Assembly: GCF_009914755.1 (NCBI RefSeq)
Contig: NC_060933.1
Direction: 5' to 3' (one strand)
Source: the human T2T-CHM13v2.0 reference genome, Homo sapiens
DNA: 64,000 nt
Below, one piece after another: positions 695-17,900 of this stretch. The notes under the pieces were generated by a model, which worked only from the letters and a program-made list of their open reading frames with translations, made no database searches and was not told the origin of the DNA. Position 1 is the first letter of the stretch. Every line of letters begins with the position of its first letter. The translations under genes and the position numbers were made by a program.

Positions 695-4790
<4,096 letters not shown>

Positions 4791-10050: not shown

Positions 10051-11255
10051 TAATGTTTGTATTTTCAGTAGAGATGGAGTTTCACCACGTTGGCCAGGCT
10101 GGTCTCGAACTCCTGACCTCGTGATCCGCCCACGTCGGCCTCCCAAAGTGTTGGGATTACAGACGTGAGCCACCGCGTGTGGTCTTTTTATTTTTATCTT
10201 ATTAAATTTTTTGAGACAGGGTCTCTGGCTCTGTTGCCCAGGCTGGAGTACAGCTGCTTGATCCTGGGTCACTGCAACTTCGACCTTCCAGGCTCAAGTG
10301 ATCTTCCCACTTCAGCCTCCCAAGTATCTTGGAAAACAGCTACTTAGCCATACCTGATTAATTTTTATTTATTTTTTTTATTTTTTCCTTTGGAAACTAC
10401 TTTATTTTTTATTTATTTTTTTTTGAACATATGTATTTGTCAATATATTTTTGGCTGATGTGTTTACACAGGAAAAAATAATATTTACATACTCAAACCT
10501 CAGTTCAACATTTTAACAAAACAACATGCAGAAAAGTCTTCACTTCCTTTCTAAATACAAATGCTAGAATGTCGGAATCACACGTGGATGTTTTGAAAAG
10601 CGTGCTGAGCCTCCTCAAGGGTCATGGAGCTGCACATGCTACGACACCAAAGCAACTGGGTTTTGTTGGTTTTGTGGCAGTTGCTTATTAATATGTAATT
10701 TACATTCAGTAAAATCTGCCTTTTATTTTTTTTTTATTTTTTATTTTTAAATTTATTTTTTTATTGATAATTCTTGGGTGTTTCTCACAGAGGGGGATTT
10801 GGCAGGGTCATGGGACAATAGTGGAGGGAAGGTCAGCAGATAAACAAGTGAACAAAGGTCTCTGGTTTTCCTAGGCAGAGGACCCTGCGGCCTTCCGCAG
10901 TGTTTGTGTCCCTGATTACTTGAGATTAGGGAGTGGTGATGACTCTTAACGAGCATGCTGCCTTCAAGCATCTGTTTAACAAAGCACATCTTGCACCGCC
11001 CTTAATCCATTTAACCCTGAGTGGACACAGCACATGTTTCAGAGAGCACAGGGTTGGGGGTAAGGTCACAGATCAACAGGATCCCAAGGCAGAGGAATTT
11101 TTCTTAGTGCAGAACAAAATGAAAAGTCTCCCATGTCTACTTCTTTCCACACAGACACGGCAACCATCCGATTTCTCAATCTTTTCCCCACCTTTCCCGC
11201 CTTTCTATTCCACAAAGCCGCCATTGTCATCCTGGCCCGTTCTCAATGAGCTGTT

Positions 11256-12700
11256 GGGCACACCTCCCAGACGGGGTGGTGGCTGGGCAGAGGGGCTCCT
11301 CACTTCCCAGTAGGGGCGGCCGGGCAGAGGCGCCCCTCACCTCCCAGACGGGGCGGCTGGCCGGGCGGGGGGCCGACACCCCCACCTCCCTCCCGGACGG
11401 GGCGGCTGGCCGGGCGGGGGGCCGACACCCCCACCTCCCTCCCAGACGGGGCGGCTGGCCGGGCGGAGGGCTGACCCCCCCACCTCCCTCCCGGACGGGG
11501 CGGCTGGCCGGGCAGAGGGGCTCCTCACTTCCCAGTAGGGGCGGCCGGGCAGAGGCGCCCCTCACCTCCCAGACGGGGCGGCTGGCCGGGCGGAGGGCTG
11601 ACCCCCCCACCTCCCTCCCGGACAGGGCGGCTGGCCGGGCGGGGGGCTGACCCCCCAACCTCCCTCCCGGACGGGGCGGCTGGCCGGGCAGAGGGGCTCC
11701 TCACTTCCCAGTAGGGGCGGCCGGGCAGAGGCGCCCCTCACCTCCCAGACGGGGCGGCTGGCCGGGCGGAGGGCTGACCCCCCCACCTCCCTCCCGGACG
11801 GGGCGGCTGGCCGGGCGGGGGGCTGACCCCCCCCACCTCCCTCCCGGACGGGGCGGCTGGCCGGGCAGAGGGGCTCCTCACTTCCCAGTAGGGGCGGCCG
11901 GGCAGAGGCGCCCCTCACCTCCCAGACGGGGCGGCTGGCCAGGCGGAGGGCTGACCCCCCCACCTCCCTCCCGGACGGGGCGGCTGGCCGGGTGGGGGGG
12001 CTGACCCCCCCATCTCCCTCCCGGACGGGGTGGCTGGCCGGGCTGAGGGGCTCCTCACTTCCCAGTAGGGGCGGCCGGGCAGAGGCGCCCCTCACCTCCC
12101 GGAAGGGGCGGCTGGCCGGGCGGGGGGCTGACCCCCCCACCTCCCTCCCGGACGGCACGGCTGGCCAGGCGGGGGGCTGACCCCCCCACCTCCCTCCCGG
12201 ATGGGGCGGCTGGCCTGGCCGGGGCTGACCCCCTGCCACCTCCCTCCCGGACGGGGTGGCTGCCGGGCGGAGACGCTCCTCACTTCCCAGATGGGGTGGC
12301 TGCCGGGCGGAGAGGCTCCTCACTTCTCAGACGGGGCAGCTGCCGGGCGGAGGGGCTCCTCACTTCTCAGACGGGGTGGTTGCCAGGCAGAGGGTCTCCT
12401 CACTTCTCAGACGGGGTCTCGGCCGGGCAGAGGCGCTCCTCATCTTCCAGACGGGGTCGCGGCTGGGCAGAGGCGCTCCTCACATCCCAGATGGGGCGGC
12501 GGGGCAGAGGCGCTCCCCACATCTCAGACGATGGGCGGCCGGGCAGAGACGCTCCTCACTTCCTAGATGTGATGGCGGCTGGGAAGAGGCGCTCCTCACT
12601 TCCTAGATGGGATGGCGGCCGGGCGGAGACGCTCCTCACTTTCCAGACTGGGCAGCCAGGCAGAGGGGCTCCTCACATCCCAGACGATGGGCGGCCAGGC
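11256..12700 (-). repeat. SVA VNTR (GC-rich ~35-50 bp units)
   Basis: Repeated GACGGGGCGGCTGGCCGGGC...CCCCCACCTCCCTCCCG and CCTCACTTCCCAGTAGGGGCGGCC units. Confidence 0.95.
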
Positions 12701-12782
12701 AGAGACACTCCTCACTTCCCAGACGGGGTGGCGGCCGGGCAGAGGCTGCAATCTCGGCACTTTGGGAGGCCAAGGCAGGCGG

Positions 12783-12931
12783 CTGCTCCTTGCCCTCGGG
12801 CCCCGCGGGGCCCGTCCGCTCCTCCAGCCGCTGCCTCCCGGGCGGCGCTCGCCGGCGCGGCGGCAAAGACTGAGACAGCTCCGCTGGCCGCTGAACTCCA
12901 TCCTCCCGGCGGTCGGGCGGCGGCGGCTGCC
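12783..12931 (-). pseudogene. MAST2: Transduced fragment of MAST2 exon 1 at the SVA 5' end
   Basis: Minus strand reads QPPPPDRREDGVQRPAELSQSLPPRRRAPPGRQRLEERTGPAGPEGKEQ, which I recognise as the MAST2 N-terminus; it ends in CAG joined to SVA sequence CCGCCTGCCTTGGCCTCCC, the defining SVA_F1 splice junction. Confidence 0.9.
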
Positions 12932-12935
12932 TTAA

Positions 12936-17900
<4,965 letters not shown>

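What the first reader, a model, noticed from the sequence alone, without database searches (positions are those of the whole stretch)
10358..10765. SVA with three stacked poly(A) tails: a record of serial 3' transductions
Seen, in element orientation: SVA AATAAA (10765-10760), tail 1 (~10759-10721), 296 bp unique AT-rich DNA (10720-10425) with variant signal AATATA 19 nt before its end, tail 2 (10424-10401, containing AATAAA), a 14-bp spacer GTAGTTTCCAAAGG (10400-10387), tail 3 (10386-10371), then the TSD. The TSD and the split host Alu put all of this inside one insertion. Established: SVAs read through their weak poly(A) signal and transduce 3' flanks. Inference: grandparent locus gave the 296 bp, parent locus gave the 14 bp using an AATAAA in tail 2, so at least three generations of human-specific jumping.
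Basis: partly seen in the sequence, partly recalled or inferred. Interest (0 to 1): 0.75.

Follow-up and report, generated by a model that had tools for sequence, protein, structure and literature searches.

The report
SVA retrotransposon carrying two ancestors' flanks
A human jumping gene near WDR5 carries about 300 bases identical to a spot on chromosome 15, plus 14 bases that likely come from a spot on chromosome 3, so it likely records two ancestors missing from this genome; this kind of record is already well described.

Summary
An SVA_F1 on the minus strand (window 10358-12944, 13-bp TSDs, splitting an Alu) ends in tail 1, 296 bp, tail 2, a 14-bp spacer and tail 3. The 296 bp is 100% identical to chr15:70,797,743-70,798,038 and has no other full copy in CHM13. 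That site holds no SVA, starts at a perfect L1-endonuclease motif (TT/AAAA), and an old repeat runs across the junction, so chr15 is the source. The 14-mer occurs 36 more times, about chance level. Only 1 of 36 (chr3:66,096,698, TT/AAAG, followed by A) fits an insertion site, against 0.02-0.06 expected by chance; that test is post hoc. Best reading: chr15 grandparent, then chr3 parent, then chr9. In the last step the RNA was likely cut using an AATAAA inside tail 2, keeping the parent's TSD. Neither ancestor is in CHM13 or in the population tables I could see. Stacked tails, short TSD carry-over and missing sources are all documented (Kirby 2025 lists elements with three origins). This is a real, new instance of a known kind.

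The parts
12932..12944 (-). 5' target-site duplication (13 bp)
   Evidence: identical to 10358-10370
12931..12931 (-). extra G between the TSD and the element, likely copied from the RNA cap
   Evidence: not in the 3' TSD context; 11 loci carry a G before this same start; cap origin per Raiz 2012 passages
12783..12930 (-). MAST2 exon-1-derived 5' end (148 nt) up to the AG/CC junction, the mark of SVA_F1
   Evidence: junction position; first 232 nt match 40 loci at 98-100%; junction described in Kirby Fig. S2
11259..12782 (-). Alu-like remnant and VNTR
   Evidence: Tandem Repeats Finder arrays 11259-12746
10760..11258 (-). SINE-R ending in AATAAA (10765-10760)
   Evidence: sequence; 4-14 mismatches to 20 SVA_F1 copies over ~565 nt
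10721..10759 (-). tail 1: the element's own A/T-rich end, the poly(A) of the chr15 copy, and 5 nt matching the chr15 target site
10425..10720 (-). 3' transduction from chr15:70,797,743-70,798,038 (+); variant signal AATATA ends 19 nt before its end
   Evidence: 296/296 identity; source site anatomy
10401..10424 (-). tail 2, with three AATAAA ending 25, 21 and 14 nt before the next junction; last 4 nt match the chr3 candidate site
10387..10400 (-). 14-bp spacer, likely the parent's target-site duplication; best candidate chr3:66,096,701-66,096,714 (+)
10371..10386 (-). tail 3, the poly(A) of this insertion
10358..10370 (-). 3' target-site duplication
10205..10357 (-). right arm of the host Alu
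   Evidence: colinear with intact Alus
12945..13075 (-). left arm of the host Alu
   Evidence: colinear with intact Alus

Best explanation
This SVA_F1 carries, inside one pair of target-site duplications, 296 bases identical to an SVA-free endonuclease site on chr15 and 14 bases that likely come from a parent copy on chr3, so it likely records three successive insertions. Step 1 (inferred): an SVA_F1 inserted at chr15:70,797,739 (TT/AAAA). Step 2 (inferred): Pol II read through its signals, cut 296 nt downstream at a C/A junction 19 nt after AATATA, and L1 proteins inserted that RNA at chr3:66,096,698 (TT/AAAG), making tail 2. Step 3 (inferred): the chr3 copy was transcribed from an internal start in the MAST2 part (extra 5' G). 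It was cut 14-25 nt after an AATAAA lying in tail 2, which is about where its own ~17-nt TSD ends, and was inserted into the linker of an Alu on chr9, making tail 3. Both ancestors are absent from CHM13 and were likely lost or are rare alleles. Shown: anatomy, the chr15 identity, the empty sites and the motifs. Inferred: that SVAs ever stood at those sites, which signals were used, and the order of events.
For: One full second copy, 296/296, on chr15. No SVA sequence in 15 kb around it. The junction is a 0-mismatch TT/AAAA site; background is 45 of 72,895 G positions, or 45 of 767 given AAAAG. Three of 4 non-self, non-chr9 hits of an old repeat align across the chr15 junction at 69-74% identity, so the chr15 arrangement is the ancestral one. 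Of 36 other exact 14-mer matches only chr3 has a 1-mismatch endonuclease site compatible with tail 2, and it is followed by A; 0.06 such matches are expected, or 0.02 with the A. AAA plus the spacer is 17 nt, a typical TSD length. Hexamer spacing in tail 2 fits. Kirby 2025 reports 27 concatenated cases, ultra-short 3' transductions that are the source's TSD, and missing sources for 16% of carriers. Its Table S4 rows 59, 62 and 71-73 show the same or deeper stacking.
Against: No SVA is seen at either site in CHM13, and there is no sibling with the transduction. Searches for the junction motifs gave 0 hits in the Kirby tables and in the visible part of the Schloissnig table. The chr3 assignment rests on 19 matching bases, and the criterion was chosen after seeing the matches. 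Six matches have 2-mismatch sites, among them four chr10 duplicates with a native AATAAA and a U-rich downstream stretch (21 T of 35, against 14 of 35 on chr3). On chr15 a canonical AATAAA follows the end point directly (position 297), so the RNA ended just before a stronger signal. That is allowed but not the most expected outcome.
Confidence: 0.6

Rival explanations
1. Three insertions as above, but the parent stood at another site: one of the chr10 duplicates, the chrX match, another 14-mer match, or a site whose CHM13 allele differs by a base.
For: Four chr10 copies (92-98% alike) have a native AATAAA 15 nt before the spacer end and a U-rich downstream stretch, the look of a poly(A) site. 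The chrX match has CT/AAAA before it. A 14-mer is not unique.
Against: chr10 and chrX have four A before the spacer while chr9 has T plus three A, so they need a slip or a worse nick (2 mismatches). They are followed by T or C, not A. None of the six candidate loci tested holds an SVA: the chrX hit is a solo LTR about 400 nt away.
Confidence: 0.2
2. Only two insertions (chr15, then chr9). The spacer and tail 3 arose during the chr9 insertion: reverse transcription began on the poly(A) end of another RNA, or on nearby target DNA, and then jumped to the SVA RNA's tail.
For: The host Alu 15-30 nt downstream shares a 4-nt and a 7-nt block with the spacer. The chr10 duplicates look like a poly(A) site that could end an RNA at this 14-mer. 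Template switching in SVA is proposed for 1 case in Kirby 2025.
Against: The local likeness is reached by 21% (strict gaps) or 10% (lax gaps) of 3,000 random 200-nt stretches. No transcript is known to me to end at the chr10 sites (not tested). TSD carry-over is a recurrent, documented outcome, whereas switching was proposed once among 217 carriers.
Confidence: 0.14
3. No SVA ever stood on chr15. The 296 bp came from another RNA ending there, for example read-through from a polymorphic L1 4.6 kb upstream, joined to the SVA tail by a template switch at AAAA.
For: The site is empty in CHM13 and in the tables seen. A non-reference 6,080-bp L1 in forward orientation is listed at chr15:70,793,167.
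Against: The junction is a perfect endonuclease motif, seen in only 45 of 767 AAAAG contexts. Missing sources are common (16% of carriers).
Confidence: 0.04

Closest known systems
Concatenated SVA 3' transductions (Kirby et al. 2025, PMC12593883; Table S4 rows 59, 62, 71-73)
   Same: Several poly(A) tails separated by flanks from successive source loci, including flanks of TSD length (row 62: an 18-bp origin plus a 62-bp origin) and three origins in one element (rows 71-73); sources often absent from the reference.
   Different: That study covers non-reference insertions. This one is in the reference, and its chr15 and chr3 motifs were not found in those tables. Here the short piece follows a long transduction, which rules out the SVA's own signal for the last cut.
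SVA_F1 chr10-derived group (H10_1 / CH10_SVA_F; Raiz 2012 PMC3287187, Kirby 2025, Chu 2023 PMC10681720)
   Same: SVA_F1 with a MAST2 5' end and 3' read-through; offspring act as further sources.
   Different: No 5' or 3' Alu cargo and no chr10 AluSp flank; short (148-nt) MAST2 part; no known sibling.
Ultra-short 3' transduction by retention of the parent TSD (Kirby 2025)
   Same: A spacer of TSD length between two A-tails.
   Different: Kirby confirmed such cases against source elements, whereas here the source is inferred from an empty site. Kirby left the mechanism open; here AATAAA hexamers in the inherited tail lie at canonical distance.

Membership tests
SVA_F1 | MAST2 exon-1 sequence joined at AG/CC to the Alu-like region, no hexamer repeat | tested here: met
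   junction at 12783/12782; no hexamer array at the 5' end; first 232 nt match 40 loci at 98-100%. That the matching chr1:45.68 Mb site is the MAST2 gene is recalled.
SVA_F1 | VNTR and SINE-R with AATAAA | tested here: met
SVA_F1 | L1-type hallmarks: TSD, poly(A), A-rich target | tested here: met
   13-bp TSD, split Alu
SVA_F1 | human-specific (absent at the ape ortholog) | not testable with these tools
   no ape genome is held; the subfamily is called human-specific in Raiz 2012 and Kirby 2025
SVA 3' transduction | extra DNA between the element's tail and a further tail, inside the TSDs | tested here: met
SVA 3' transduction | extra DNA maps to one other locus that holds the ancestral arrangement | tested here: met
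   chr15, 296/296; old repeat continuous across the junction
SVA 3' transduction | poly(A) signal 10-30 nt before the end | tested here: met
   variant AATATA, 19 nt; the list of variant hexamers is recalled
SVA 3' transduction | source element present at the origin | tested here: not met
   site empty in CHM13. Kirby accepts origins without an element (16% of carriers), so this lowers proof, not class.
concatenated transduction with parent-TSD retention | short piece maps to a second locus at an endonuclease site | tested here: inconclusive
   1 of 36 matches fits (chr3), chance expectation 0.02-0.06, post hoc
concatenated transduction with parent-TSD retention | parent element seen with the same TSD | not testable with these tools
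   needs population assemblies; 0 motif hits in the tables seen

The most novel reading that the evidence does not exclude
T-interrupted poly(A) tails create new canonical AATAAA signals at the tail/TSD junction (A-run + T + AAA from a TT/AAA target). An SVA copy can thereby be born with a poly(A) signal that cuts its RNA at about the end of its own TSD. That would explain part of the unexplained ultra-short 'parent TSD' transductions and make them mappable barcodes of lost ancestors, here an extinct chr15-to-chr3-to-chr9 lineage. This element is a clean example, because every other signal is 45 nt or more away. It cannot be the whole story: by eye, only 2 of 5 distinct short-spacer events in the 31 rows seen of Kirby Table S4 have an AATAAA within 30 nt.
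Probability: 0.3. Interest if true: 0.45.

Novelty: new member of a known kind. Interest (0 to 1): 0.27.

Why it matters
It names two former SVA_F1 source sites (chr15 firmly, chr3 probably) that are empty in the reference, and gives exact positions and expected TSD starts to look for in pangenomes or archaic genomes. It is also a clean case for asking why some SVA offspring keep only their parent's TSD, a point Kirby 2025 left open. No effect on WDR5 or WDR5-DT (12 kb or more away) is suggested by anything seen.

Tried and rejected
Siblings with the 296 bp: none. The third hit is 79% over 90 nt, and two further exact 18-mer hits at the 3' junction and one are at chance level and were not examined. 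A sibling sharing this copy's private MAST2 variant: only itself. Nearest relative by sequence: 20 of the 39 other loci listed were compared. No clear parent emerged; L045 (chr6) is closest in the 5' part (7 mismatches) but not in the SINE-R (9). The other 19 loci were not read. SVA-like hit beside the chrX 14-mer: a solo LTR, rejected. Local templating of the spacer from the host Alu: chance level. Literature: 8 searches gave no paper naming this locus; the WDR5 search listed none with WDR5 and SVA in a relevant context. Supplement searches by motif and coordinate were negative, with limits. Kirby cells are cut at 400 characters. The Schloissnig file is cut (roughly half of Table 18 by my estimate, Tables 19-20 not seen). 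GRCh38 prefixes were guessed from recall. The Tang list, the Halabian archive and the Hoyt transduction table (CHM13, 55 high-confidence SVA 3' events) could not be read. Damert 2009, Hancks 2009, Xing 2006 and Hoyt 2022 are not held and may already list this element.

Full report
Observation. A 13-bp duplication flanks the whole (12944-12932 and 10370-10358), with one extra G at 12931. The two flanks align colinearly to intact Alus elsewhere in the window (46 colinear pairs among 86 left and 55 right hits). So tails, 296 bp and spacer all entered in one insertion into the linker of an Alu. The 5' end is 148 nt up to an AG/CC junction, the SVA_F1 mark described in Kirby 2025 Fig. S2, and matches 40 loci at 98-100%.

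The 296 bp. A search of the window's genome gave three hits: itself, chr15:70,797,743-70,798,038 (+) at 296/296, and a 79% match over 90 nt on chr3:154 Mb. Identity extends 5 nt into tail 1 and 2 nt into tail 2. Directly upstream on chr15 lies a run of T followed by AAAA, a 0-mismatch L1-endonuclease site; background is 45 of 72,895 G positions, or 45 of 767 AAAAG contexts, in 334 kb of DNA in hand counting both strands. No SVA sequence lies in the 15 kb around it. Direction is settled by an old repeat: of 4 hits other than chr15 and chr9, 3 align across the junction at 69-74%, so chr15 is the original arrangement. The end point is a C/A junction 19 nt after AATATA, and a canonical AATAAA follows immediately on chr15 but was not carried.

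The 14 bp. The 14-mer has 37 exact matches, against 21 for the reversed control, so it cannot be mapped by identity alone. I read the flanks of all 36 other matches and scored the best TT/AAAA-like nick compatible with the end of tail 2: 1 site with one mismatch, 6 with two, 6 with three, 20 with four, 3 with five. The one-mismatch site is chr3:66,096,698 (TT/AAAG). It matches 4 nt into tail 2 and 1 nt into tail 3 and is empty in CHM13. By chance 0.06 of 36 matches would have TTAAA before them, and 0.02 also an A after; the criterion was set after seeing the list. AAA plus spacer is 17 nt, a usual TSD length. Against it: four chr10 duplicates have a native AATAAA and a more U-rich downstream stretch (21 of 35 T against 14 of 35), but they carry four A where chr9 has three. 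Likeness of the spacer to the host Alu is at chance level (10-21% of 3,000 random stretches).

Which signal cut the last RNA. Tail 2 holds three AATAAA ending 25, 21 and 14 nt before the spacer end; the next variant hexamers are 45 and 57 nt away, and the SVA's own lies over 370 nt away. If the spacer is a flank, a tail-borne signal (or the A-rich tail itself) directed the cut; this is inference from the usual 10-30 nt spacing, which is established knowledge. Tail 1 also holds several AATAAA that were bypassed twice, so use is not obligatory. In the 31 rows of Kirby Table S4 that I saw, 2 of 5 distinct short-spacer events (rows 45/71 and 62, against rows 59, 61 and 70) have an AATAAA within 30 nt, counted by eye. 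The idea is therefore at best partial.

The 5' end. Eleven loci carry G before this same MAST2 start, against 27 with the templated C. Of 5 examined, 3 have the TSD at or next to that G (in one the G may belong to the TSD), and 2 carry 5' extra DNA traced to chr22 and chr2. Raiz 2012 attributes such G to the cap (passages). So this copy is likely a full-length cDNA of an RNA started inside the MAST2 part, although Kirby's length rule would call it truncated.

Ancestors in the population. No SVA at either site was found by motif or coordinate in the Kirby tables or the visible part of Schloissnig Table 18, which uses CHM13 coordinates. That file is cut, and its transduction tables were not seen. 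It does list VNTR-length alleles inside this SVA (chr9:146,331,941) and a non-reference full-length L1 4.6 kb upstream of the chr15 source. Identity of 296/296 only says the copy is recent; with a recalled neutral rate it does not exclude a few million years.

What is known. Kirby 2025 (abstract, Results parts 2-3, sections 6 and 12 part 1, figure-legend supplement part 1, table part 31 of 36, term searches) reports 3' transductions in 159 of 543 polymorphic SVAs, 27 concatenated cases, ultra-short ones equal to the source's TSD with mechanism left open, and sources found for 84% of carriers. Its rows 71-73 have three origins. Schloissnig 2025, Chu 2023, Raiz 2012, Tang 2018, Halabian 2022 and the Hoyt preprint were seen as passages only. 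Damert 2009, Hancks 2009, Xing 2006 and Hoyt 2022 were not available and may list this element. I found no paper naming it in 8 searches.

Verdict. Real feature, correctly read. The chr15 transduction is about 0.95 certain, a third insertion about 0.8, and chr3 as the parent site about 0.6. It is a new member of a known kind, interest 0.27.

Noticed in passing
window 12931 and 10 other loci: Eleven SVA_F1 copies share the same start inside the MAST2 part with an extra G. This suggests a recurrent internal transcription start, so these short-MAST2 copies may be full-length rather than truncated.
   Followed up: partly
L044 (chrX:61.6 Mb) 4222-4508: SVA_F1 with ~287 nt of 5' extra DNA: 213 nt match chr2:161,003,680 at 99%, the rest is unmapped; possibly a concatenated 5' transduction.
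   Followed up: partly
L045 (chr6:34.22 Mb) 476-598: SVA_F1 with ~123 nt of 5' extra DNA matching chr22:28,058,686 at 96%; it shares two minority variants with the chr9 copy.
   Followed up: partly
L048 (chr15:61.28 Mb) and L049 (chr9:38.26 Mb): Both continue after the tail with the same flank, which begins with L049's TSD, so L048 looks like a 3'-transduced offspring of L049.
   Followed up: no
L053 (chrX:99.41 Mb) and L054 (chr5:151.70 Mb): L053 has ~135 nt between two A-tails with ATTAAA near its end; L054 has a 3-nt spacer between A-runs. Stacked tails are common among these copies.
   Followed up: no
chr15:70,793,167 (in L004): Schloissnig 2025 lists a non-reference 6,080-bp L1 here, 4.6 kb upstream of the transduction source.
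   Followed up: no
window ~11941: VNTR length alleles inside this SVA are listed as population-differentiated (FST 0.27, AFR) in Schloissnig Table 13.
   Followed up: no
L036 1380-2001: A solo LTR sharing the SINE-R end lies about 400 nt upstream of the chrX 14-mer match; coincidental.
   Followed up: yes
L026, L028-L030, L039: Five duplicated segments on chr10 and chr17 (89-98% alike) hold the 14-mer; four have AATAAA just before it, and all have a U-rich stretch after it.
   Followed up: partly
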